Shown here: positions 1,613-56,926 of the stretch, one piece after another
Position numbering within the stretch: the first letter of the stretch is position 1
Layout: every line of letters begins with the position of its first letter
DNA from: Bryobacterales bacterium
GTDB lineage: Bacteria; Acidobacteriota; Terriglobia; Bryobacterales; UBA6623
Direction of reading: 5' to 3'
DNA: 64,000 nt
Assembly (NCBI GenBank): GCA_965208945.1
Contig: OZ242366.1
Location: 2,040,483-2,104,482, forward strand
Translations under genes and position numbers: made by a program
The notes under the pieces: model-generated
Database searches by the model: none
What the model was told of the DNA's origin: nothing
The model's input: the letters and a program-made list of their open reading frames with translations, nothing else

Positions 1613-1934
1613 CGGCAGACACACCTGGGTGAGCCGCAAAGGCTTAGTCTACTGGGAATAGGCGGAGGAAGGATGCGAGTTGTTCTCAGGCATTCATTCC
1701 TGCCGGGAATGCCGACGCACTGGGGGAAGTTCCCCTGGCGAGCCAACGAGAAGGCAAAGGAAAAAATTCCACTCCGGCTGACCTGAAACATCCTCCTATC
1801 CAGGCGAGGTGGACATCTGTTCCGATGTTGCCCACTTGAACGATCCGCACGCGGGCGGAGGAAAAACTGGCCTGCATATCTCGCAGCATGGCGAGACGAA
1901 GTGCCTGCCTGCTGCAAGGCAGGCCTGACAGGGC

Positions 1935-3115
1935 TGGCGGAACAAGGTGCGAACCGCCCGCGCCGGCCTCACGGCCTTTCAGGGTTTTCACGAATCACGA
2001 GACACGAAACACGGCTTTTTTCGAAACACGGGGTTTTTGGTACTGAAGCCCTTCTGTCTTTTTTTCCCGCCCCGGCCTGTTTAGCATCAGGGCAGGATGT
2101 CGGGACTCACCCGGATCGACTTGCCCTCGGCGCGGCGCTCGCTGGGGCGGCAATCGTCCCCCGCGCCGGCAGCACGGCCTTTAAGGTTTTCACGAGACAC
2201 GAAACACGAATCACGGCTTTTTTCAGACCCGAAACACGGCTTTTCTGTGGCTCGTATGGTGCTCGTTGGTACTGAAGCCCTTCAGTCTTGTTTTTTCGGC
2301 CGGAATCTGCTCTAGGTTGACAGTGATGACGCCGTTGCTGGGACCGAAAACCTCATCCACGCCCGTCGGGGACGCGCCGGCTGGAGACAACAAAGCCGCC
2401 CAAGGCACTTCTTTTCAGGTATTTACGAGACCCGAGACCCGAGACACGGCGTTAGCTGGGCGCGAGGCGCAAGCCGGCGCGAATTCCGAGGTTTTCACGA
2501 ATCACGAGACACGAAACACGAAACACGGCTTTTCGAGCCACGGTTTTGTCGAATCGTTGCCTCTTGGTACTGAAGCCCTTCAGTCTTTTTTTCGGCCGGG
2601 GGACGGTTTAGGTTGAGAGTGATGACGCCGTTGTTGGGAACGAAAACCCCATCCGCGCTCGTCGGGGCCAAGTCGGGTGGGGGCAGAAGAGCCGCCCGAT
2701 CGCTGCTTTCCTGCGCGTTGTGGAGCGGCATGGCGCGGCTATGGCGCGGCATGGGCGGCCGCCGTCCCCCGCACCGGCAACACGGCCTGCTGGGTTTTCA
2801 CCAGCCACGGGACACGCAACATGGTTTTCCCCTGCCCTCCGGCGACTCCAAGGAGAGCAACCCCAAGCCCGAACAACGGGTTTTCACGAAACACGAAAGA
2901 CGGCTTTTTTCACCGTGCATGCGCAAGGGACACACAGTCAGAAACCACCGTCCGGACCGCCGCGCACGCCGCCCGGTCACTGCTTTCCTGCGCGTTGTGG
3001 CGCGGCATGGGGCGGCTATGGCGCGGCATGGGCGGCCGCCGTCCCCCGCTCCGGCAACACGGCCTGTAAGGTTTTCACGAAACACGAATCACGAAACACG
3101 GACTTTATTGCCGCG
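1935..3115. repeat. Mosaic non-coding repeat cluster (heptad CACGA arrays, terminator-like hairpins, about 300-bp tandem units)
   Basis: Module GGTTTTCACGA + 3-5 tandem heptads ((A/T)CACGA(A/G)) recurs near 1984, 2184, 2489, 2793, 2877 and 3067. Hairpin ACTGAAG-CCC-CTTCAGT plus T-run occurs near 2040, 2271 and 2568. Blocks such as GCTGCTTTCCTGCGCGTTGTGG..GGCATGG.GCGGCTATGGCGCGGCATGGGCGG occur twice (about 2700 and 2985). Only R/P/A-rich ORFs on both strands. Confidence 0.8.
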
Positions 3116-3592: not shown

Positions 3593-6349
3593 ATGAATGC
3601 GCGTGTTCCGGTTGTTTGCTTTCTTCTGACCGTCTTTGCGGGTCTTTGCGGAGATGCGGCCCGGGCTGAGGCCGCACAGGAACACGAAGAGTTCTTCGAG
3701 ACCCGTATTCGGCCCTTGCTCGCCGAGCATTGCCAAAGCTGTCATGGCGAGTTGGCGACCTCTGGACTGCGTGTCGATTCACGCGACGGTTTGTTGAAGG
3801 GCGGCAGCAGAGGACCGGCCATCCTGCCGGGGAATCCCGGGTCCAGCCTGCTCTTGCAAGCCGTCAGCCATTCTCACCCCAACTTGAAAATGCCGCCGTC
3901 CGGCCGGCTGGGTCAACGCGCTGTCGATGATCTCGCCACTTGGGTCCGCGCCGGTGCGGTGTGGCCGCGGAAAACGGAGCAAGTCAGTCAGGAAAAAGCG
4001 AAGGGAATCAGTGAGGAAGACCGATCCTTCTGGTCGTTCCAGCCGCTCAGAAAACCGGCCGTCGTCGGCGACTCGCCCATCGACGAACTCGTTCGGGCGT
4101 CCCTGCAGGAGAATGGCTTGACGCCGAACACGCCGGCCGACAGAAGAACATGGCTCCGCCGCATCAGCTTCGATCTGATGGGCCTGCCTCCGACTCCCGA
4201 GGAGGTTTCCGCATTCCTCGCTGACGACTCGCCACTGACGTTTTCAACAGTTGTGGACCGCTTGCTGAGCTCGCCGCACTTCGGCGAGCGCTGGGGACGT
4301 TATTGGCTCGATGTCGCTCGCTATGGCGAAAACGACTTCCACGGCGTCGGCATCGCAGAGTATCCGCAAGCCTGGCGCTATCGCGACTGGGTGATCGAAG
4401 CCTTCAACTTTGATATGCCCTATGACGTTTTCGTGAAGGCGCAGATCGCCGCTGACCTGATGCCGGGAGACAACCGGAAGCTGCTCGGCGGCCTGGGCCT
4501 GTTCGGCTTGGGGCCATGGTATTACGGGATTTCACATCCTCCCCAAGCCCGCTCCGACGAACGCAATGAGCGAGTGGACATGGTTTCGCGCGGCTTGTTG
4601 GGGCTGACGGTCGCTTGCGCCAGATGCCACGATCACAAGTACGACCCCATCTCGATGCGGGACTACTATGGGCTGGCCGGGGTCTTCGCCAGCGTGCACT
4701 ATAAGAGCTATCCTCTCGCCTCGGAACAGACCATCCAGGACTACAAGCGGCAGGAGAAAGAGATCAAGGACCTCGAGAAGGAGATTGCCGATTTCCTGAA
4801 GCGGCAGAGTGAAGACCTCGCGCGCATCTTCACACGGCGTACCGCCGACTATGTGATCGCCTCTTGGCGGGTTCTGTCGCCGGGTGAGATGGACGAGGAG
4901 GAGCTTGCCTGCAAGGTCGACGAGGTCGCACGCCGGAGCAAGCTTGACTGGAAGATCCTGGAGCGCTGGGTCAACTACCTGCGAAAGCCTCACGAGGATC
5001 ATCCCTACTTGGACGCCTGGAAGCGGTTGCTTGAGGATGGAAACGCCGCCGAGGAGCAAGTCCGGCAAGTTGCCGACGACTATCAAGCGCTGGTCGTTTC
5101 GCTCGCGGATGAACGAGAGAAGATCGAGGAAGAGACGCGGACTCTCGTAGCCCGTCTGGATAAGAAGAAACGAGAGCGGACGCAGCTTCCCAACAATTAC
5201 ATCTCGGGCGACAGCTTCAAGTTCAATGATGTGGATACGACACCGATGTCGCGACACCGGTACCTGGCTTGGAAGCCGGTTCTCGGGGTAGGCAATGATG
5301 CGGTCCTGCGTTATCAAGGGGAAGAACTGGAGCGCTTCCTTCAGGGTGAGTGGAAACAGCACCTGCAGTCGCTTCGAGCTGAACTCGAGGAGAAAAAAGA
5401 AAAACTGCCGCCTCACTACCCTTACCTGCCGGGGATCGAGGACTGGAAGGAGCCGCGGAACGCCAAGCTCAACCCTCGCGGCAACCCGTTCCAGGAGGGA
5501 GAGGAGATTCCTCGGCGATTTCCTGCGGTGTTGAGCCACGGCGAGCCCGCTCCGTTCCGCAATGGAAGTGGCAGATTGGAATTGGCCGAAGCGATCGTCA
5601 AACAGCCGCTGGCAGCGCGGGTCATGGCAAATCGTGTTTGGCATCACCTTTTTGGCAGTGGCATCGTGCGAACAACGAGTAATTTTGGACGGACCGGAGC
5701 CAAACCCTCAAATCCGAAGCTGCTCGAATACCTGGCGTGGCGTCTCGTCCATCAGCAGTGGTCGATCAAGAAACTCATTCGCGAGATTGTGCTCTCCGAA
5801 ACCTATCGGGCAAGCAGCGACAGATTGAATCCCAACGAAGCGAAGGATCCCGACAATCGCTTCTTCCGGCGTGCCAACCGGCGCCGTCTCGACATCGAGG
5901 CCTTGCGAGACGCGATGTTGTTCGTTGCCGGACAACTCGACCCTGAACAGGGCGGCGAGTCCAAGGCACTCTCCGCCGAAAACCGCAGGCGAACCGTTTA
6001 CGCAAGAGTCCAGCGCTTCCGGCCGGATGAAACATTGGCCTTGTTCGACTTCCCGAATCCGAGCGCGAGCAGCGCGCAACGGGTTGTCACCAATGTGCCG
6101 TTGCAGCGCCTCTTTTTTCTCAACAGCGGCTTCGTTCTACAACAGTCTGAAGCCTTGGCGGCGCGGGTCCGGTCCGCCGGAAGCGATGACGATCGGATCC
6201 GGGAGGCGTATCGGCTTTCGTTTACACGCGAGGCGGACGACTCGGACGTTCGGGACGCCCTCGACTTTCTCGCCGCCGCTGGAGAAGACGGCTGGACCCA
6301 GTATGCACAGGTGTTGCTCGGTTCTAACGAATTTGCCTTCATTGATTAG
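3593..6349 (+). CDS. PSCyt1 / DUF1549 / DUF1553 domain protein (Planctomycete-type cytochrome-c-like, secreted)
   Basis: ORF 3446..6349. Preferred start is M50 (3593), which gives a signal peptide (MNARVPVVCFLLTVFAGLCGDAARAEA). CxxCH motif (CQSCHG), DUF1549-like FDLMGLPPTPEEV..SPHFGERWGRYWLDVARYGE, DUF1553-like CARCHDHKYDPISMRDYY. Confidence 0.9.
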   Translation: MNARVPVVCFLLTVFAGLCGDAARAEAAQEHEEFFETRIRPLLAEHCQSCHGELATSGLRVDSRDGLLKGGSRGPAILPGNPGSSLLLQAVSHSHPNLKMPPSGRLGQRAVDDLATWVRAGAVWPRKTEQVSQEKAKGISEEDRSFWSFQPLRKPAVVGDSPIDELVRASLQENGLTPNTPADRRTWLRRISFDLMGLPPTPEEVSAFLADDSPLTFSTVVDRLLSSPHFGERWGRYWLDVARYGENDFHGVGIAEYPQAWRYRDWVIEAFNFDMPYDVFVKAQIAADLMPGDNRKLLGGLGLFGLGPWYYGISHPPQARSDERNERVDMVSRGLLGLTVACARCHDHKYDPISMRDYYGLAGVFASVHYKSYPLASEQTIQDYKRQEKEIKDLEKEIADFLKRQSEDLARIFTRRTADYVIASWRVLSPGEMDEEELACKVDEVARRSKLDWKILERWVNYLRKPHEDHPYLDAWKRLLEDGNAAEEQVRQVADDYQALVVSLADEREKIEEETRTLVARLDKKKRERTQLPNNYISGDSFKFNDVDTTPMSRHRYLAWKPVLGVGNDAVLRYQGEELERFLQGEWKQHLQSLRAELEEKKEKLPPHYPYLPGIEDWKEPRNAKLNPRGNPFQEGEEIPRRFPAVLSHGEPAPFRNGSGRLELAEAIVKQPLAARVMANRVWHHLFGSGIVRTTSNFGRTGAKPSNPKLLEYLAWRLVHQQWSIKKLIREIVLSETYRASSDRLNPNEAKDPDNRFFRRANRRRLDIEALRDAMLFVAGQLDPEQGGESKALSAENRRRTVYARVQRFRPDETLALFDFPNPSASSAQRVVTNVPLQRLFFLNSGFVLQQSEALAARVRSAGSDDDRIREAYRLSFTREADDSDVRDALDFLAAAGEDGWTQYAQVLLGSNEFAFID

Positions 6350-32205: not shown

Positions 32206-32300
32206 TGGCTCGACGATCAAGCGAACCCATCAAGGTTGCTCCTGTTCTTGACGCAGTGCCTTCGGTAGACCGCCGCTGTCAGCGAGCACGGCAACTCATG

Positions 32301-33560
32301 GCTAACCTGCATTTCTCACCACGAGGTGAGGTGAAGTGCGTGAGAGGGCCGTCAGGACGAGCTGCAAGCCGCTTGGCGCCGGCAACACGGCCTTTCAGGG
32401 TTTTCACGAATCACGAGGCACGAAACACGTGGCTCGAACGGTGCATGGGGTACTGAAGCCCTTCAGTCTTGTTTTTCCCGCCCCGGTCTGCTAGGCGTGA
32501 GGACAGGGAGGCGGCGAGGAGCAGTCCGTGCGGGTCGCGAATCAAGGCGTTCACTAGCCGCAAGCCACTGATTTTAAGGTTTTTACAAGATACGAAGCAC
32601 GGTTTTTATTCTCGAGTCACGAAACACGAAGCACGGCTTTTATGTTTTCACGAAACACGAATCACGTGGCTCGAACGATACACGTGGGTACTGAAGCCCT
32701 TCAGTCTTTTTTTATCGCCCCGGACGGCGTAGCATGAGGACAGCGAGTCGGGAATCCTGGCCCTCGCGAAGAAAAAAGCGGAAAAAATCGAGGAGGTGAG
32801 ACTAAGCGCATGCGTCCGCGGCGAAGTTTGTTCTTCGTGGCGCCGGCAACCCCGGCCGGCAGTACAAGCTGCAAGCCGCCCGCGCCTGCAACACGGCCTT
32901 TCAGGTTTTTCACGAATCACGAATCACGAGTCACGAGACACGAAACACGGCCTTTATGCTTTTCTCGCTGCTTTCCTGCGCGTTGCGGCGCGGCATGGGG
33001 CGGCTATGGCGCGGCATCGGCGGGCCCCCGTTCCCCCGCACCGGCAACACGGCCTGTTGGTTTTCACGAATCATGCATCACCGCATTTATCGCCGTTCGG
33101 TTCGTCTTGGATGCGAAAGGGTCGCACAACCGAAAACCGCCGTCCGGACCGCCGTGCCCGCCGCCAGGTCACGGCTTCCCTGTTCAAGATTGTTCGCCAT
33201 TGTTCACTATTAATTTAAATGGAGGGGGGGCTGAACAAGTGTCCGCGCATCGTCCGCCGTTCTCGGTCGGCCTCCCGGCGAGTGCCGTTCTCCGCAGCTC
33301 CCGCCGCTCTCCCTTGATTGCACAGACATGGGAATGTTTTCTGTTGCGTTGGCAGCTAGCCTGCATTTCTCACCACGCGGCGAGGCGAAGTGCGTGAGAG
33401 GGCCGTCAGGACGAGGCGCGAGTCGGGCGGAGGAAGAAGGCGCGCGCAGGAGTACTTGAACAGTACGTAGAGCCCGGCAAGCAAGCGTTGCGAAGGAAAA
33501 GCGAAGTCCTGGCGGTCGTATCGTGTGTTTCGGACGTCGGGTGGTGAGAAATCTAGGCTA
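32301..33560 (+). repeat. 1.26-kb mosaic repeat, left arm of a large inverted repeat (half-MITE + heptad/hairpin modules + full MITE copy B at 33356-33560)
   Basis: Starts CTAACCTGCATTTCTCACCAC and ends GTGGTGAGAAATCTAGGCTA. The reverse complement of 38684-39933 aligns along the whole length with a few indels (compared by eye). The ORF track shows mirrored junk ORFs (32810..33397 + versus 38886..39437 -, both starting MRPRRSL.FVAPATPA). Confidence 0.85.
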
Positions 33561-38683: not shown

Positions 38684-39933
38684 CTAGCCTGCATTTCTCA
38701 CCACCCGACGTCCGAAGCACGCGATAAGACCGCCAGGACTTCGCTTTTCCTTCGCAACGCTTGCTTGCCGTGCTCAACGTACTGTTCAAGTACGCCTGCG
38801 CGCGCCTTCTTCCTCCGCCCGGCTTGCGCCTCGTCCTGACGGCCCTCTCATGCACTTCGCCTCGCCATGTTGTGAGAAATGCAGGCTAGCTGTCAACGCA
38901 ACAGAAAACGTTCCCATGTTTGCGCAATCGAGGGAGAGCGGCGGGAGCTGCGGAGAACGGCATTCGCCGGGAGGCCGACCAAGAACGGCGGACGGTGCGC
39001 GGACACTTGTTCAGGACCCCCTCCATAAAAAAAATAGTGAACAATAGCGAACAATGGCGAACAATCGTGAACAGGGAAGCCGTGACCTGGCGGCGGGCAC
39101 GGCGGTCCGGACGGCGGTTTTCGGTTGTGCGACCCCTTCGCACCCACGGTGAACCGAACGGCGATAAATGCGGTGTTGCATGATTCGTGAAAACCAACAG
39201 GCCGTGTTGCCGGTGCGGGGGACGGCGGCCCCGCCCATGCCGCGCCATAGACGCCCCATGCCGCGCCGCAACGCGCAGGAAAGCAGCGAGAAAAGCATAA
39301 AGGCCGTGATTCGTGTTGCGTGACTCGTGATTCGTGAAAAACCTGAAAGGCCGTGTTGCCGGCGCGGGCGGCTTGCAGCTTGTGCTGTCGGCCGGGGTGG
39401 CCGGCGCCACGAAGGACAAACTTCGCCGCGGACGCATGCGCGTACTCTCACCTCCTCGATTTTGCCCGCTTTTTTCTTCGCGAGGGCCAGGATTCCCGAC
39501 TCGCTGTCCTCATGCTACGCCGTCCGGGGCGGCAAAAAAAGACTGAAGGGCTTCAGTACCCACGTGCACTTTTCGAGCCACGTGATTCGTGTTTCTTGAA
39601 AAACATAACAGCCTTGCTTCGTGTTTCGTGACTCGTGAATAAAAGCCGTGCTTCGTATCTTGTAAAAACCTTAAAATCAGTGACTTGCGGCTAGTGAACG
39701 CCTTGATTCGCGACCCGCACGGACTGCGCCTCGCCGCCTCCCTGTCCTCATGCCTAGCAGGCCGGGGCGGCAAAAACAAGACTGAAGGGCTTCAGTACCC
39801 ACATGCACCATTCGCGCCACGTGATTCGTGAAAACCCTGAAAGGCAGTGTTGCCGGCGCCAAGCGGCTTGCAGCTCGTCCTGACGGCCCTCTCACGCACT
39901 TCACCTCACCTCGTGGTGAGAAATGCAGGCTAG
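38684..39933 (-). repeat. 1.25-kb mosaic repeat, right arm of the large inverted repeat (full MITE copy D at 38684-38889 + modules + half-MITE)
   Basis: Reverse complement of the 32301-33560 arm. Starts CTAGCCTGCATTTCTCACCAC and ends GTGGTGAGAAATGCAGGCTAG. Confidence 0.85.
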
Positions 39934-39962
39934 CGGCAAGCTCCTACGCTACGATCGGATCG

Positions 39963-52918: not shown

Positions 52919-54052
52919 GTGAGGGAAAGCCGGATGAACGCTCTTACTCGACCTGGGATGCTCTCTATCGCTTCATTAATCCTTGCTGCCTGTGCCGCCC
53001 CGCCATCGCTCGTCCAGACCGAGCTGTTCATCGCCGGACAGGGCGGCTACCACACCTACCGCATCCCATCGATCATTACGACCCTCAGAGGAACCCTGCT
53101 TTCTTTCTGTGAAGGCCGCAAGAACAGCCGTAGCGATTCCGGCGATATCGACCTGCTCCTTCGCCGTAGCTACGACGGAGGGCAGACATGGGGTGAAGTT
53201 CAAGTCGTCGCTGATCACGGCGAAGATACGATCGGCAATCCTACCCCCGTCATCGATCGAGACACGGGAACGGTTTGGCTGCTACTGACCAAGAACCCCG
53301 GTTACGCAACTGGCGAACAACTCATGAGCGGTTACGAAGCCGGAACACGCACCGTTTGGGTCACCCATAGCAATGATGACGGCGAAACGTGGGCGGAAAC
53401 GGAGGAGATCACCGACACGACGAAGAAGACGGATTGGACTTGGTATGCCACGGGGCCGGGTGTTGGCATTCAATTACAGTCCGGTCGTCTCGTGATCCCG
53501 TGTGATCACCGCAAGCAAGGTTCGCAGCGCTCCTACTCGCATGTCATCTACAGCGACGACCATGGAGCGACTTGGCAGATCGGCGGCGAGACTTCCTTGA
53601 AAAACAACGAATGCCAAGTGATCGAACGTCGGGACGGATCGCTTCTGTTGAACATGCGCAGCAACCACGGCCGCAACCGCCGCTCGATCGCGACCAGCAA
53701 TGACGGTGGACTTACTTGGTCCAACATTTCCTTCGACGAAGCGCTGATCGAGCCCCGCTGCCAAGCCAGTCTGCTTCGCTACACTTCCATTATGCAATCG
53801 AGTGCATCGCTCGTACTATTCTCGAATCCCGCCTCCAGCGAGCGAGAGCGGATGACCATCAGGCTCAGCCGTGACGACGGAGCAACTTGGGCGCATTCCC
53901 GCATACTACACGCTGGGCCTGCCGCCTACTCCTGTCTCACGGTTCTCTCCGACGGCTCGATTGCCTGCCTCTACGAACGCGGCGACGCTGACCGCTACGA
54001 GAAGATTACCTTCGCTCGTTTCAGCCTCGACTGGCTCACCGGCGAGAGCTAA
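52919..54052 (+). CDS. Exo-alpha-sialidase (GH33, BNR/Asp-box repeats), lipoprotein
   Basis: 377 aa with lipobox-like LILAACA. YRIPSI (RIP motif) and five Asp-boxes (SYDGGQTW, SNDDGETW, SDDHGATW, SNDGGLTW, SRDDGATW). The stop codon lies inside the MITE terminus. Confidence 0.9.
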   Translation: MRESRMNALTRPGMLSIASLILAACAAPPSLVQTELFIAGQGGYHTYRIPSIITTLRGTLLSFCEGRKNSRSDSGDIDLLLRRSYDGGQTWGEVQVVADHGEDTIGNPTPVIDRDTGTVWLLLTKNPGYATGEQLMSGYEAGTRTVWVTHSNDDGETWAETEEITDTTKKTDWTWYATGPGVGIQLQSGRLVIPCDHRKQGSQRSYSHVIYSDDHGATWQIGGETSLKNNECQVIERRDGSLLLNMRSNHGRNRRSIATSNDGGLTWSNISFDEALIEPRCQASLLRYTSIMQSSASLVLFSNPASSERERMTIRLSRDDGATWAHSRILHAGPAAYSCLTVLSDGSIACLYERGDADRYEKITFARFSLDWLTGES

Positions 54053-54143
54053 CCTGCATGTCTCACCACCCGGCGGTCGAAGCACGCGATACGACCGCCA
54101 GGACTTCGTTGCGCTTGCTTGCCGTGCTCAACGTACTGTTCAA
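54049..54143. repeat. MITE-like element copy G, left half (interrupted by IS110-family insertion)
   Basis: CTAACCTGCATGTCTCACCACCCGGCGGTCGAAGCACGCGATACGACCGCCAGGACTTCGTTGCGCTTGCTTGCCGTGCTCAACGTACTGTTCAA, then the IS begins. Confidence 0.85.
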
Positions 54144-54407
54144 TATATGGTTCGCTCCCGGGATGTCCACCTATTCCTTCTTGCTGAACGTTGGTCTGCG
54201 CCAATATATCCGACCTCTAGGTGGAACCGCGCTGGTTCCGGGCCATGATGGGGTCCGCACGTCCCGCTCCTCATAAGTACGCCGACCTGTGAGGGCCATG
54301 AACAGTAACAGGATTCGGTGACGCCGGTACGACCGTTTTGTCCATCAATCGGGAGTAAGCAGACAAACTGTGAGCTCCTGGTAGTGCTACGGCGGACCGC
54401 AGGGCGG
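54144..54407 (-). ncRNA. Candidate bridge (guide) RNA region in the 3' non-coding arm of the IS110-family element
   Basis: 264-nt non-coding arm. It holds a 12-nt copy of the right junction (CATAAGTACGCC, 54272-54283 = 55580-55591). It holds the reverse complement of the left target flank (TGAACAGTA, 54299-54307 vs TACTGTTCA, 54134-54142). It holds an 8-nt copy of the left junction (CAATATAT, 54202-54209 = 54141-54148). RNA ends are not defined. Confidence 0.35.
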
Positions 54408-55481
54408 TTAACCCGCCGGGGCTGGTTGCCGCTGTTGAGAGAAGCGCTGGCCGCTGCTCAGCAAGGCCCATGCGATGCGCGCCAGCCGTGCCGCCAGCGC
54501 CACGATCACGACCCGCCGATCTTTGTTCAGGAGCATCCGCCGCAGCCACTGGCCGAGTTGGTCGCTGCGCTTCGCGAGCACGTCGAGGCTCGAGCGGGCA
54601 CAGTGCACCAGCAGCGTCCGGACGTAGCGGTTGCCGCGCTTGCTGATGCCTCCCAAGCGCTGCTTGCCTCCGCTGGAGTACTCTCTCGGCACCAGACCCA
54701 ACCAAGCAGCGACGTCGCGCCCCTTCTCGAAGGCCTCGGCGTTGCCGATCGTCGCCACCAAGGCCGTCGCTGTCTGCACGCCGATGCCGGGGATCTCTCT
54801 GAGCCGCCGGCAGGCCTCGCTCGCCTGCGCTTTCCTCAGCAGATAGGTGTTGACTTGCTGAATCTTCTCTGCCAGCACTTGCCATTCGGCAAACATGCCC
54901 GCCAGCAGCGCCCGCATTTCGTCGGACAGGCCGTTATCGGCGTCCTCGAGGATCTCCGGCAGACGGACCACAAACCAACGCTTGCCCTGTGGAAGGGTGA
55001 TGCCGCGTTCCAGCAGAAAGGCGCGCGCCTGGTTGATCAACTGCGTCGAGTTGCCCACCAGCCGCGAGCGATAGCGGTGCAGCGACTGCATCGACAGTTG
55101 TTGCTCGCTCTTGACCGCCACGAAGCGCATGCTCGGCCGCAGACAGGCTTCCGCGCAGGCCTCGGCGTCCGTCGAGTCGTTCTTGTCGCGCTTCACAAAG
55201 GGCTTCACATATTTGGGCGGCATCAGCTTCACGTCGTGCCCCTGGGCCAGCAGTTGGCGGCCCAGGTGATGGGCGCCGCAGCAGGCTTCCATGCCGATAC
55301 GGCAGGGCTGCATCTGGGCGGTCACCTCCAGCAGCTTGCCCTTCGAGTAGCGGCGACGGGTGAGCACCCGGCCGGTTGCGTCCAAGCCGACCAAGTCGAC
55401 GTTGTGTTTTGCTAGATCGAGGCCGATCGTGACGACCTCCTTCCATACGCTCTTGCGGGATGATCGCTGGGTCGTTGCCAT
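54408..55481 (-). CDS. IS110-family transposase/recombinase (DEDD RuvC-like N-domain + Tnp C-domain)
   Basis: ORF 54408..55640; start M54 (55481) follows GAGGAAACCATC. Motifs TIGLDLAKHNVDLVGLD, RIGMEACCGAHH, KNDSTDAEA, IPGIGVQTATALVATIGNAEAF, GLVPREYSSGGKQRLGGISKRGNRYVR. Confidence 0.92.
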   Translation of the reverse strand: MATTQRSSRKSVWKEVVTIGLDLAKHNVDLVGLDATGRVLTRRRYSKGKLLEVTAQMQPCRIGMEACCGAHHLGRQLLAQGHDVKLMPPKYVKPFVKRDKNDSTDAEACAEACLRPSMRFVAVKSEQQLSMQSLHRYRSRLVGNSTQLINQARAFLLERGITLPQGKRWFVVRLPEILEDADNGLSDEMRALLAGMFAEWQVLAEKIQQVNTYLLRKAQASEACRRLREIPGIGVQTATALVATIGNAEAFEKGRDVAAWLGLVPREYSSGGKQRLGGISKRGNRYVRTLLVHCARSSLDVLAKRSDQLGQWLRRMLLNKDRRVVIVALAARLARIAWALLSSGQRFSQQRQPAPAG

Positions 55482-55584
55482 GATGGTTTCCTCTCGGTTC
55501 GTGAACTGCGGCCGGGGACGGCCGTTGCTACCAGCATGGCCGAACTCGACGACGCAGCGGAAGTGGGAGCGAACCATCCCATAA

Positions 55585-55674
55585 GTACGCCTGCGCGCGC
55601 CAAGCGGCTCGCGCCTCGTCCTGACGGCCCTCTCACCCACTTCGCCTCGCCACGTGGTGAAAAATGCAGGCTAA
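55585..55674. repeat. MITE-like element copy G, right half
   Basis: GTACGCCTGCGCGCGCCAAGCGGCTCGCGCCTCGTCCTGACGGCCCTCTCACCCACTTCGCCTCGCCACGTGGTGAAAAATGCAGGCTAA continues the repeat exactly where the left half stops. Confidence 0.85.
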
Positions 55675-55711
55675 GAAGGCATCTGAACGTCGTCGCCTGT
55701 CAGGATGAATC

Positions 55712-56926
55712 TCAGCCGGCCAACAGTCCCGCCAGCGAAGCTGTCATGAAATTCGCCATCGTGCCCGCGAGCATCGCACGAAAACCGAGTATTGCGAGGT
55801 CATGCCTGCGACCGGGAATCAGGCTCGCGATGCCCCCCACCTGGATTCCGATCGAACCGAAGTTCGCGAATCCGCAAAGTGCGTACCCCGCGATCAAGAA
55901 CGACTCTGGCTGTAGAGTCTGTTGGGTCTTTCCGAGTTCCGCATAGGCAACGAATTCGTTGAGCACCATTCTTGTGCCCAGCAGGTGGCCGACCGTTCCC
56001 GCATCCGACCACGGCACACCCATCACCCACGCGACGGGGGCGAATAGCAGTGCGAAGACATCCTCAAGCGCTTGCGGCATCCAACCCATATGCGGCAGTT
56101 CATGGATCCATCCCAGCAGGCCGTTCATCACCGCGATGAGTGCGACGAAGGCGATGAGGACCGCTCCGACGTTGAGCGCCAGATAAAGCCCCTCGCTCGC
56201 TCCGCGCGCCGCTGCGTCGATCACGTTCACATCGGCTGCATGGGACTCGCGCGGCACTCTCCCGAAAGTCTCCGGAGTTTCCGTTTCCGGTTCGAGCATC
56301 TTGGCCATCAGCACCGCGCCGGGCGCGGTCACGATGACGGCCGTCAGCATGTGCTCCATTGGGACACCGCCGATCTGGACGTACGCCACCAGCAACGCGC
56401 CCGAGATCGTCGCCATCCCCCCCGTCATCACGGTCATCAGTTCCGAGCGAGTTAGCTTTTCGAGATATGGCCGTATTGTCAACGGGGCTTCCGACTGTCC
56501 CATGAAGATGTTCGCCGCCACGTTCAGCGACTCAGCTCCGCTTGCCCCCATCACTCGTTGCATTACAAGTGCAATGCCGCGTACGGCTTGCTGCATGACG
56601 CCCAGGTAATACAGCACTGCGAACAGCGACGAGATAAAAACGATCAGCGGCAGGATCTGGAACGCGAGGACGGTCCCGATCGGCCCCTGGGAACTGCCCA
56701 AATCGCCGAACACGAACTGTGTTCCTGCCTCTGCTAACAGCATCATGCGGTTAACGGTGGCGCCGATGGCTTGAAAGACCTTCCTGAACGGCGTCTTGAG
56801 CACCAGGATCGCCAGCGTGAGTTGAAGCCCCAGGCCCCAGAGCACCGTCGACAGCCGAATTGCGCCACGGTCTCTCGAAAGCCCGTAGGCTAGTCCAAGA
56901 AGAAGAACGAGACCGATCAGTCCCAT
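55712..56926 (-). CDS. NupC/NupG-family concentrative nucleoside transporter
   Basis: 404 aa, polytopic membrane protein with a CNT-family N-terminus and the conserved MGQSEAPL.. / ..GFANFGSIGIQ motifs. Confidence 0.88.
   Translation of the reverse strand: MGLIGLVLLLGLAYGLSRDRGAIRLSTVLWGLGLQLTLAILVLKTPFRKVFQAIGATVNRMMLLAEAGTQFVFGDLGSSQGPIGTVLAFQILPLIVFISSLFAVLYYLGVMQQAVRGIALVMQRVMGASGAESLNVAANIFMGQSEAPLTIRPYLEKLTRSELMTVMTGGMATISGALLVAYVQIGGVPMEHMLTAVIVTAPGAVLMAKMLEPETETPETFGRVPRESHAADVNVIDAAARGASEGLYLALNVGAVLIAFVALIAVMNGLLGWIHELPHMGWMPQALEDVFALLFAPVAWVMGVPWSDAGTVGHLLGTRMVLNEFVAYAELGKTQQTLQPESFLIAGYALCGFANFGSIGIQVGGIASLIPGRRHDLAILGFRAMLAGTMANFMTASLAGLLAG

What the first reader, a model, noticed from the sequence alone, without database searches (positions are those of the whole stretch)
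54144..55584. IS110-family element inserted at a precise site in a MITE-like repeat, with guide-like copies of both target flanks in its 3' arm (candidate bridge RNA)
Seen directly: MITE copy G is split between ..GTACTGTTCAA and GTACGCCTGCG.., which are contiguous in copies C, D and F. AA is present at both junctions. Sub-terminal inverted repeats are ATGGTTCGCTCCC and GGGAGCGAACCAT.

The 264-nt non-coding arm downstream of the recombinase gene contains three short matches:
- CATAAGTACGCC (54272-54283), identical to the right IS/target junction (55580-55591).
- TGAACAGTA (54299-54307), the reverse complement of the left target flank (54134-54142), 15 nt away from the first match.
- CAATATAT (54202-54209), identical to the left junction.

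Established knowledge: IS110/IS1111 recombinases use an element-encoded bridge RNA whose loops pair with target and donor, and many family members target REP-like repeats. In the IS1111 group the RNA is encoded 3' of the CDS.

Inference: this arm encodes such an RNA, programmed for the MITE core site. Five further intact sites (CTGTTCAAGTAC in either orientation) lie in this window alone.
Basis: partly seen in the sequence, partly recalled or inferred. Interest (0 to 1): 0.7.

Follow-up and report, generated by a model that had tools for sequence, protein, structure and literature searches.

The report
IS1111-type element with its bridge RNA
A 1.44-kb mobile element of the IS110/IS1111 family sits at one exact position in a short repeated element and carries, after its recombinase gene, a roughly 160-200-nt guide RNA whose loops spell out that insertion site. 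It is a well-supported new example of the RNA-guided transposition described in 2024, not a new mechanism.

Summary

- **Element:** window 54144-55584 is an intact IS1111-group element. It has a 357-aa DEDD/SG recombinase, 13-bp sub-terminal inverted repeats, a 2-nt core, a 103-nt 5' end and a 263-nt 3' end. It lies exactly in the central hairpin of a ~190-bp MITE-like repeat.
- **Guide covariation:** across 66 related loci (43 guide classes) the two 3'-arm segments change together with the flanking target. Mean match to the own target is 13.1 nt against 7.5 for permuted targets (0 of 20,000 permutations reach it). Three close relatives with identical ends carry different guides and sit in correspondingly different sites.
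- **Structure:** covariation supports a fold (91.8% of cells paired; 24 of 33 pairs change on both sides) that puts the target guides in an internal loop and the donor guides in a multiloop.
- **Known relative:** a covariance model built here finds the same RNA after the IS4321 transposase gene (70 bits).
- **Expression:** four sponge metatranscriptomes hold contigs covering the 3' arm but almost none of the recombinase gene.
- **Other copies:** three further copies, in different MITE copies, use the same site and orientation.

Verdict: a new member of a known kind. Activity of this copy and RNA-protein binding were not tested.

The parts
54144..55584 (-). Insertion sequence, 1441 bp counting one copy of the 2-nt core (AA on the + strand, TT in transposase orientation). 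The second core copy, at 54142-54143, belongs to the target.
   Evidence: Exact empty sites in 5 MITE copies. Contigs skip 1441 nt with 2 nt ambiguous.
54408..55481 (-). Recombinase/transposase CDS, 357 aa plus stop. Catalytic D22, E65, D102, D105. Motif G262-L-x-P-x4-S270-G271.
   Evidence: Pfam DEDD_Tnp_IS110 and Transposase_20. NCBIfam NF033542, 335 bits. Alignment to ISCro4/IS621 chains. Residue positions.
55565..55577 (.). Sub-terminal inverted repeat of the left end (5' of the CDS), 7 nt inside the element end.
   Evidence: Perfect reverse complement of 54147-54159. Identical in 8 Bryobacterales relatives.
54147..54159 (.). Sub-terminal inverted repeat of the right end (3' of the CDS), 3 nt inside the element end.
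54190..54346 (-). Core of the bridge/seek RNA (157 nt): helices P2-P8, target-binding loop and donor-binding multiloop.
   Evidence: Covariance model R1, 91.6 bits, the only significant hit in the 64-kb window. Structure counts. Part coordinates.
54165..54364 (-). Probable full RNA, closed by outer helix P1 (about 200 nt).
   Evidence: RNAalifold on 9 Bryobacterales sequences, with compensatory changes. P1 is 96% paired in the alphaproteobacterial relatives. Metatranscriptome contigs span 54168-54362, 54165-54392 and 54147-54386.
54299..54307 (-). Target guide T (RTG-like), UACUGUUCA. It is complementary to the top strand of the target: the second core T plus right flank GAACAGTA.
54272..54283 (-). 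Target guide B (LTG-like), GGCGUAC+UU. It equals the top strand of the left flank plus core and so pairs with the bottom strand. It is followed by AUG, the first 3 nt of the left end.
54283..54298 (-). Hairpin P5 (UGGCC / GGUCG, loop CUCACA) separating the two target guides.
   Evidence: 98.7% of cells paired; 4 of 5 pairs change on both sides.
54246..54254 (-). Donor guide for the left end (RDG-like), ACCCCAUCA. CCCAU is complementary to ATGGG at the start of the left end.
   Evidence: table of RD against RDG.
54202..54210 (-). Donor guide for the right end (LDG-like), GAUAUAUUG. AUAUA+UU equals the last 5 nt of the right end plus core.
   Evidence: ATATA, ATACG and ATACA end variants are each matched by their own guide.
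54142..54169 (-). Sigma-70-like promoter at the right end: -35 TGGACA, 16-nt spacer, -10 TATATT (right end plus core). It faces outward, and into the left end in a circular form.
   Evidence: Consensus scan: 10 of 12 matches, 1 site found against 0.1 expected. Function is inferred.
54049..54143 (+). Left half of the interrupted MITE-like repeat.
55585..55677 (+). Right half of the interrupted MITE-like repeat.

Best explanation
This is an intact IS1111-group member of the IS110 family, from a sponge-associated Bryobacterales bacterium.

Its DEDD/Ser recombinase works with an RNA transcribed from the 3' non-coding arm, in the same sense as the recombinase gene.

- **Target loop.** An internal loop of the RNA carries two guides separated by a small hairpin. 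The 5' guide (UACUGUUCA) pairs with the top strand of the right target flank. The 3' guide (GGCGUACUU) pairs with the bottom strand of the left flank. The two overlap at the TT core.
- **Donor multiloop.** A second pair of segments (CCCAU and AUAUAUU) lies in the multiloop and matches the two ends of the element. The RNA can therefore hold the donor, presumably a circular RE-TT-LE junction, against the target.
- **Result.** Recombination at the TT core inserts the element, without duplication beyond the core, into the small central hairpin CGTACT-GTTCA-AGTACG of a MITE-like repeat.

Shown here: the anatomy, the guide-target and guide-end covariation, the RNA structure, homology to the IS4321 RNA, presence of transcripts, and repeated use of the same site.

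Inferred from published work on ISEc11, ISKpn4, ISPa11 and IS621: RNA-protein binding, a circular intermediate, the strand-exchange chemistry, and activity of this particular copy.
For: **Protein**
- Pfam PF01548 and PF02371.
- NCBIfam 'IS110 family RNA-guided transposase', 335 bits against a cut-off of 140.
- D22, E65, D102, D105 and the GL-P----SG motif are present.
- 41-43% identity over 87% of the length to IS4321/IS5075-family transposases.

**Element anatomy**
- 13-bp sub-terminal inverted repeats; 103-nt 5' end against a 263-nt 3' end; 2-nt core; exact empty sites.

**Natural reprogramming**
- Eight Bryobacterales relatives (76-90% aa identity) have identical ends.
- L002/L003 carry guides ACCAGGCAA and GGUUGAAUU and sit in TTGAA-TT-TGCCTG.
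- L005/L006 carry CGUCACCGA and GACAAAGUU and sit in CAAAG-TT-GGTGACG.
- The window, L001, L004 and L010 carry the MITE guides and sit in the MITE.

**Family-wide test**
- 66 loci in 43 guide classes. Longest match to the own target is T 7.05 + B 6.07 nt, against 4.18 + 3.22 for other targets.
- 0 of 20,000 permutations reach the observed value. The own target ranks best of 43 in 28 classes. The window element scores 9+9.

**RNA structure**
- On a MAFFT alignment: 90.3% of cells paired, 19 pairs with changes on both sides; slid controls give 30-39% paired.
- On the model-based alignment of 62 distinct sequences: 91.8% paired, 24 of 33 pairs with changes on both sides.
- Many G-U pairs fix the RNA strand as the transposase sense.

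**Donor guides**
- The LDG matches the right-end variants ATATA, ATACG and ATACA in their respective elements.

**Covariance model R1**
- It hits the IS4321 3' arm, which was not in the training set, at 70.2 bits (E 2e-16). The guide at the model's T position reads TTCCGTTTTA against the flank TT-CCGTTTTC.
- It hits 78 of the 80 related genome loci, always just downstream of the transposase gene.

**Expression**
- In four metatranscriptome runs, contigs cover 54114-54445, 54165-54392, 54147-54386 and 54168-54362. The CDS is uncovered except for 170 nt in one run. The unique flanks are uncovered.

**Site use**
- L001, L004 and L010 share only the IS and MITE with the window, so they are separate insertions in the same site and orientation.
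- IS contigs run 10-30 nt into MITE flanks without branching. IS depth is about 90 times the depth of this locus's flanks in one sample and about 0.02 times in another.

**Literature**
- seekRNA with T 5' of B and overlapping matches (PMC11187229).
- Bridge RNA predicted in the right end of 93% of IS1111 elements, with donor nucleotides in a multiloop (PMC11208160).
Against: - The single-sequence fold of the arm is no more stable than shuffles (z = 0.06). The structure rests on comparison alone.
- Rfam has no matching family.
- One close relative, L007, has guides that do not match its flanks. A few alphaproteobacterial loci match poorly, though some of these abut other IS ends.
- The RDG-left-end match is only 5 nt and covaries only partly.
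- Published work shows that an 82-nt seekRNA suffices for ISEc11. The donor-binding role of the multiloop segments is therefore less secure than the target-binding role.
- The RNA evidence consists of unstranded assembled contigs from environmental samples. They carry two differences from the window (54173, 54273), so they come from a near-identical copy, not demonstrably from this locus.
- No promoter for the RNA was found inside the integrated element.
- No experiment was done on this element.
Confidence: 0.9

Rival explanations
1. The element is an IS1111-type IS and the arm encodes a target-seeking RNA. However, the multiloop segments (CCCAU, AUAUAUU) are not donor guides. Donor ends would be recognised by the protein binding the 13-bp sub-terminal repeats, and only the ~75-80-nt target arm (P3-P5, 54255-54327) would be functional.
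For: - An 82-nt seekRNA supported ISEc11 transposition better than the 154-nt form (PMC11187229).
- The RDG match is only 5 nt. Eight or more alphaproteobacterial elements with ATGGG ends keep a UCCAU guide.
- Long sub-terminal repeats are the feature that distinguishes IS1111 from IS110.
Against: - The LDG follows three different right-end variants (ATATA, ATACG, ATACA), with at least two independent changes.
- P2, P7 and the segments between them are as conserved as the target arm, and are conserved out to IS4321.
- Durrant et al. report donor-matching nucleotides in a multiloop for many IS1111 elements.
Confidence: 0.2
2. The copy in this window is a fixed, no longer mobile relic. The RNA and guides are inherited features without current activity.
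For: - No experiment was done.
- No promoter for the RNA was found in the integrated copy.
- Only one copy lies in the 64-kb window, although it holds five empty sites.
- One relative, L004, is broken by a nested IS.
Against: - The ORF is intact with all catalytic residues, the sub-terminal repeats are perfect, and the guide-target matches are perfect at 9+9.
- The arm is transcribed in four samples.
- Copy depth relative to this locus's flanks varies from about 0.02 to about 90 between samples, which suggests recent gain or loss.
Confidence: 0.12
3. The three short matches are by-products of a partial duplication of the junctions inside the arm, or are chance. They have no guiding role.
For: - In this single sequence each 9-nt match alone is only modestly unlikely: 27 and 41 of 2000 shuffles.
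- The B match extends 3 nt into the element end, as a copied junction would.
Against: - Both matches together occurred in 0 of 2000 shuffles.
- The segments lie at fixed positions of a conserved, covarying structure, and they change with the target in relatives that keep identical ends.
- The T segment is the reverse complement of the flank, not a copy of it.
Confidence: 0.01

Closest known systems
IS4321 / IS5075 (IS1111 group; they target the 38-bp terminal repeats of Tn21-family transposons)
   Same: - The transposase is 41-42% identical over 87% of its length.
- Sub-terminal inverted repeats are of similar sequence (ATGGTCACTCCC against ATGGTTCGCTCCC), and the RNA lies 3' of the CDS.
- The RNA is homologous: model R1 scores 70 bits and places a guide that matches the flank.
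   Different: - Different target: a MITE hairpin rather than a transposon end.
- Different right-end extension and donor guide.
- Different host phylum: Acidobacteriota, not Enterobacterales plasmids.
- The AUG extension after the B guide is not matched in IS4321.
ISEc11, ISKpn4, ISPa11 seekRNAs (Siddiquee et al. 2024, PMC11187229)
   Same: - The RNA comes from the 3' non-coding region.
- Its two short segments are complementary to the top and bottom target strands, with T 5' of B, and they overlap at the insertion point.
- Targets are repeated, hairpin-forming sequences (REP, attC).
- Natural reprogramming occurs between close relatives, as with ISEc11 and ISXne4.
   Different: - Those RNAs were shown to co-purify with the transposase and to be required and programmable. 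Here nothing was tested biochemically.
- The published sizes are 82-96 nt (peak) and about 154 nt (long form). Here the contigs and helix P1 suggest about 200 nt, with a 157-nt conserved core.
IS621 bridge RNA (IS110 group; Durrant et al. 2024, Hiraizumi et al. 2024)
   Same: - Same protein family (DEDD RuvC-like domain plus Ser-containing Tnp domain).
- A bispecific RNA with target and donor guides that each read both strands around a 2-nt core.
   Different: - The RNA lies 3' of the CDS, not 5'.
- The order of the guides is reversed.
- Donor guides lie in a three-way junction from which the target arm branches, rather than in a second internal loop. Durrant et al. noted this for many IS1111 elements.
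- The core is TT, not CT.
- The sub-terminal repeats are 13 bp against 2-3 bp.
- The protein matches IS621 only in the C-terminal domain by sequence (E 4e-13).

Membership tests
IS110 family (DEDD transposases) | Transposase with an N-terminal DEDD RuvC-like domain (PF01548) and a C-terminal PF02371 domain | tested here: met
   PF01548 at 9.4e-18 and PF02371 at 6.2e-27. NF033542 at 335 bits against a cut-off of 140.
IS110 family (DEDD transposases) | Catalytic D-E-D-D residues and the conserved Ser-Gly | tested here: met
   D22, E65, D102, D105 and S270-G271 align with the corresponding residues of the ISCro4/IS621 chains.
IS110 family (DEDD transposases) | Site-specific insertion with no duplication beyond a short core shared by donor and target | tested here: met
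   AA/TT is present once in the empty sites and at both junctions. Contigs skip exactly 1441 nt.
IS1111 group | Sub-terminal inverted repeats of 7-17 bp | tested here: met
   13-bp perfect repeats, set 7 nt and 3 nt inside the two ends.
IS1111 group | Longer non-coding region downstream of the transposase gene | tested here: met
   263-264 nt 3' of the stop codon against 103 nt 5' of the start codon.
IS1111 group | Transposase related over its full length to IS1111-group transposases; GL-P----S(T)G motif | tested here: met
   41-43% identity over residues 9-321 to IS4321/IS5075-family proteins. GLVPREYSSG is present. At 357 aa it is slightly above the 330-350 range quoted in PMC11187229.
Bridge RNA / seekRNA | [quoted passage not shown] | tested here: met
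   43 guide classes, 0 of 20,000 permutations reach the observed match. The window element matches 9+9 nt.
Bridge RNA / seekRNA | Conserved secondary structure supported by compensatory changes | tested here: met
   90.3% of cells paired with 19 covarying pairs on the MAFFT alignment. 91.8% and 24 of 33 pairs on the model alignment. A competing fold was rejected.
Bridge RNA / seekRNA | Segments matching both ends of the element (donor recognition) | tested here: inconclusive
   The LDG (7-8 nt) covaries with three right-end variants. The RDG is only 5 nt with partial covariation. A short seekRNA suffices in ISEc11.
Bridge RNA / seekRNA | The RNA is expressed | tested here: met
   Contigs in 4 metatranscriptome runs cover the arm and almost none of the CDS. 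They are unstranded, assembled, and come from a near-identical copy.
Bridge RNA / seekRNA | The RNA binds the recombinase and is required for, and programs, recombination | not testable with these tools
   This needs co-purification and transposition assays.
Rfam families | Match to a curated RNA family | tested here: not met
   No hit at E<=10 in 53500-56200. This RNA type appears not to be represented in Rfam 15.

The most novel reading that the evidence does not exclude
In this IS1111 lineage the two bottom-strand guides run on past the core into the partner DNA. B reads GGCGUAC-UU-AUG, which equals left flank + core + the first 3 nt of the left end. LDG reads AUAUA-UU-G/U, which equals right end + core + the first base of the right flank; that base changes with the target in the three matched Bryobacterales classes.

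If this is functional, 'handshake'-type pairing lies on the opposite guides from IS621. That would imply a different order of strand exchange, or a guide set tuned to read the integrated junctions for excision.
Probability: 0.12. Interest if true: 0.55.

Novelty: new member of a known kind. Interest (0 to 1): 0.33.

Why it matters
**Annotation.** The finding explains a precise insertion in a repeat, defines the element's true ends, and identifies an unannotated ~160-200-nt RNA gene that Rfam does not cover.

**Biology.**
- It gives a clean natural series. Near-identical elements in Bryobacterales have been retargeted to at least three different sites by changes confined to two short RNA segments.
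- It shows a sponge-symbiont MITE serving as a repeated landing pad.
- It shows that the RNA of this lineage is homologous to that of IS4321/IS5075, elements common on resistance plasmids.

**Tool development.** It adds a high-GC, TT-core orthologue with a perfectly matched guide-target pair.

None of this changes the current understanding of the mechanism.

Tried and rejected
- **Rfam.** A search of the region at E<=10 found nothing.
- **Single-sequence fold.** Folding the arm alone was uninformative (z = 0.06), and its minimum-energy structure differs from the comparative one.
- **Exact-protein look-up.** Not on record.
- **First RNAalifold model.** Built on 9 close relatives, it paired GGUCGU with AUGGCC and GGUC with GACC. 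On 53 sequences those helices are only 67-70% paired, against 87% and 82% for the three-way-junction model (82% is P7 and P8 counted together; one search gives P7 alone 92%). That model was rejected.
- **Anchored, gap-free scoring of guides.** It failed in the alphaproteobacterial group because of register ambiguity in T runs. Longest-common-substring scoring with a permutation control replaced it.
- **General 'handshake' test.** The base after the LDG core was compared with the first base of the right flank. It holds in the Bryobacterales set but shows no general association in the alphaproteobacterial set.
- **Second copy in the window.** None of the IS or the RNA was found. The next model hit scores 12 bits at E 0.17 and is treated as noise.
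- **MITE as a derivative of the IS.** Considered and rejected. Its terminal repeats (CCTGCATTTCTCACCAC) are unrelated to the IS ends.
Full report
**Observation**

The region was read directly. Every string and coordinate in the finding is exact.
- The 12-mer CATAAGTACGCC occurs at 54272-54283 and at the right junction, 55580-55591.
- TGAACAGTA at 54299-54307 is the reverse complement of the left flank, 54134-54142.
- CAATATAT occurs at 54202-54209 and at the left junction, 54141-54148.
- The 13-bp sub-terminal repeats at 54147-54159 and 55565-55577 are perfect reverse complements.

CTGTTCAAGTAC occurs five times exactly in the window, against 0.1 expected. Each occurrence is in the middle of a ~190-bp repeat with terminal inverted repeats. 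Joining 54143 to 55585 restores that repeat, and AA is present at both junctions and once in the empty sites. In 2000 shuffles of the arm, a 9-nt match to the left flank appeared 27 times, to the right flank 41 times, and both together never.

**The element**

The minus strand carries a 357-aa ORF (54408-55481 with its stop codon).
- It has Pfam domains DEDD_Tnp_IS110 and Transposase_20.
- It scores 335 bits against NCBIfam NF033542, 'IS110 family RNA-guided transposase'.
- D22, E65, D102, D105 and the GL-P----SG motif (S270-G271) are present.
- By sequence it matches the solved IS621 and ISCro4 proteins mainly in the C-terminal domain.
- It is 41-43% identical over 87% of its length to IS4321/IS5075-family transposases on plasmids. 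These are founding members of the IS1111 group.

The 13-bp sub-terminal repeats, the short 5' end (103 nt) and the long 3' end (263 nt) are the features that published work uses to separate IS1111 from IS110 (PMC11187229; PMC11208160).

**Relatives and natural retargeting**

A scan of one genome per species gave 80 loci. Eight are from Bryobacterales MAGs (76-90% aa identity). The rest are alphaproteobacterial, at about 50% identity.

The eight Bryobacterales copies have identical ends (TT-ATGGG-ATGGTTCGCTCCC ... GGGAGCGAACCAT-ATA-TT) but different flanks. In transposase orientation:
- The window, L001, L004 and L010 lie in GGCGTAC-TT-GAACAGTA.
- L002/L003 lie in TTGAA-TT-TGCCTG.
- L005/L006 lie in CAAAG-TT-GGTGACG.

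In an alignment of the 3' arms, almost everything is conserved except two short blocks, and these follow the flanks:
- UACUGUUCA and G(G/A)CGUACUU in the MITE group.
- ACCAGGCAA and GGUUGAAUU in L002/L003.
- CGUCACCGA and GACAAAGUU in L005/L006.

The 5' block is complementary to the top strand of the right flank. The 3' block is identical to the top strand of the left flank plus core. The two overlap at the core. This is the arrangement (T 5' of B, overlapping) reported for IS1111 seekRNAs.

L007 is an exception: its guides do not match its flanks.

**Family-wide test**

The alphaproteobacterial relatives share the plan, with different sub-terminal repeats (ATGGCCCGCCCC), a right end of ACG-TT, and many different flanks.

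I scored 66 loci in 43 guide classes by the longest exact match between each guide and a reconstructed target.
- The own target gives T 7.05 + B 6.07 nt. Other targets give 4.18 + 3.22.
- The observed mean of 13.1 was never reached in 20,000 permutations (null 7.53, sd 0.31).
- The own target is the best of 43 for 28 classes.
- The window element has perfect 9+9 matches.
- Some of the poor cases abut other IS ends (L011, L059), so their 'flank' is not a target.

**RNA structure**

The arm alone does not fold better than shuffles. Comparison supports these helices:
- An outer helix, P1.
- A helix, P2, closing a three-way junction.
- A target arm, P3-P4-P5, in which the T and B guides form the two sides of an internal loop around hairpin P5.
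- A second arm, P7-P8.

On a MAFFT alignment of 53 sequences, 90.3% of cells pair and 19 pairs change on both sides. When partners are slid by 1-3 columns, only 30-39% pair. The alternative suggested by the first small alignment has two helices at 67-70% paired and was rejected. On the model-based alignment of 62 distinct sequences the figures are 91.8% and 24 of 33 pairs. That alignment is fitted to the model, so it leans towards it. Frequent G-U pairs fix the RNA strand as the transposase sense.

**Donor segments**

Two segments lie in the multiloop.
- GAUAUAUU(G), just 3' of P7, equals the last bases of the right end plus core. Its counterpart reads AUACGUU where the end is ATACG and AUACAUU where the end is ATACA.
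- CCCAU, just 5' of P7, is complementary to ATGGG at the start of the left end. This match is short, and its covariation is partial.

Durrant et al. state that many IS1111 orthologues have donor-binding nucleotides in a multiloop, so this architecture is not new. Because an 82-nt seekRNA sufficed for ISEc11, I hold the donor-guide assignment with less confidence than the target-guide assignment.

**Link to a known element**

A covariance model (R1) built from the 53 sequences gives one significant hit in the window, at 54190-54346 on the minus strand. It also hits the 3' arm of IS4321 on a Salmonella plasmid at 70.2 bits (E 2e-16) and a Klebsiella relative at 36 bits. Neither was in the training set. 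At the model's T position IS4321 reads TTCCGTTTTA (as top strand), and the flank next to its right end is TT-CCGTTTTC, part of a Tn21-type terminal repeat. [quoted passage not shown] Rfam has no counterpart.

**Expression and copies**

The element occurs in sponge metagenomes and in sequencing runs of several coded host organisms.

In four sponge metatranscriptome runs, assembled contigs cover 54114-54445, 54165-54392, 54147-54386 and 54168-54362. The recombinase gene is uncovered apart from 170 nt in one run, and the unique flanking genes are uncovered. This pattern argues against DNA carry-over, and it matches the P1-closed RNA predicted at 54165-54364. Caveats:
- The contigs are unstranded.
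- Contig depth is not a measure of expression.
- The contigs differ from the window at 54173 and 54273, so they stem from a near-identical copy.

In DNA runs the IS contig continues 10-30 nt into MITE sequence on both sides without branching. IS depth relative to the unique flanks of this locus is about 90-fold in one sample, about 1.3-fold in another and about 0.02-fold in a third. This fits a multicopy, polymorphic element.

L001, L004 and L010 share only IS and MITE sequence with the window. The same site and orientation were therefore used at least four times in different MITE copies.

**Target and surroundings**

As single-stranded DNA the MITE folds into a long hairpin (z = -8.3). The site is a small central hairpin, CGTACT/AGTACG with loop GTTCA, and the core lies at the loop-stem edge. 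Other IS1111 members also use REP or attC hairpins.

The interrupted MITE lies between two convergent genes. One is a BNR/Asp-box (sialidase-like) gene ending at 54052. The other is a membrane transporter-like gene ending at 55712.

A sigma-70-like site (-35 TGGACA, 16 nt, -10 TATATT) spans the right end and core on the minus strand. In a circle it would read into the left end and the recombinase gene. That role is inferred by analogy with junction promoters of this family.

**Verdict**

The element is a new, unnamed member of the IS1111 group with a bridge/seek RNA programmed for a MITE hairpin. The mechanism, the 3' location of the RNA, the guide order and the multiloop donor site are all already described, so novelty is low. 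The data do add a tidy natural reprogramming series and environmental expression evidence. RNA-protein binding, the circular intermediate and activity of this copy remain untested.

Noticed in passing
L007:2398-3822 (flanks 2380-2397 and 3823-3850): This Bryobacterales relative has guides CAAAAGCAA and GAUUUGGUU, which predict the target ATTTGG-TT-(T)GCTTTTG. It actually sits between ..CCTTCAGC and TGTGGAATAG, and the right-hand core reads TG. It may be an off-target insertion, guide drift, or recombination between copies.
   Followed up: partly
L004:509-3691: This IS copy lies in the same MITE site but is split by a nested insertion of about 1.7 kb. The insertion carries a 487-aa ORF on the opposite strand (998-2461) that looks like a DDE transposase. 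The recombinase gene is truncated to residues 51-356.
   Followed up: partly
L011:3495-3530 and L011:1259-1406: The right end of one alphaproteobacterial copy abuts another left end (GGGGCGGGCCAT-ACG-TT-ATGGAATGGTCCGCCCC). This is a tandem or circle-like RE-TT-LE junction. A second, weaker RNA-model hit (40.8 bits) lies upstream in the same contig.
   Followed up: no
window 54342-54346 (RNA model positions 1-5): GAUGG is invariant in all 53 aligned RNAs. It equals the start of the left sub-terminal repeat (GATGG; GATGGCC in the alphaproteobacterial group) and is complementary to CCAT of the right repeat. RNAalifold paired it with that CCAU. Its role is unknown.
   Followed up: no
window 1932-3106 and 32348-33182: Other repeat families are present. 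They are built around CACGAAACACGAATCACG-like units and GC-rich blocks, with several copies clustered at two places. They are unrelated to the MITE targeted by the IS.
   Followed up: no
window 54049-54052: The MITE copy overlaps the TAA stop codon of the upstream 377-aa gene (52919-54052). That gene has five SxDxGxTW Asp-box motifs and looks like a sialidase or BNR-repeat protein.
   Followed up: no
window 32299-32388 and 39851-39936: Partial MITE copies (one half only) lie here, in addition to the five intact copies and the one interrupted copy.
   Followed up: no
window 54028-54155 and 55564-55691 (runs X4, X9): MITE k-mer depth is thousands of times that of the unique flanks in host-associated sequencing runs. 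MITE sequence is also abundant in the metatranscriptomes. This indicates a very high copy number and transcription of the repeat.
   Followed up: no
L005 and L006 (both from CBDBHC010000002.1): Two copies in one genome have flanks identical for more than 25 nt on the left and about 20 nt on the right before diverging. The CAAAG-TT-GGTGACG target therefore also lies in a repeated sequence.
   Followed up: no
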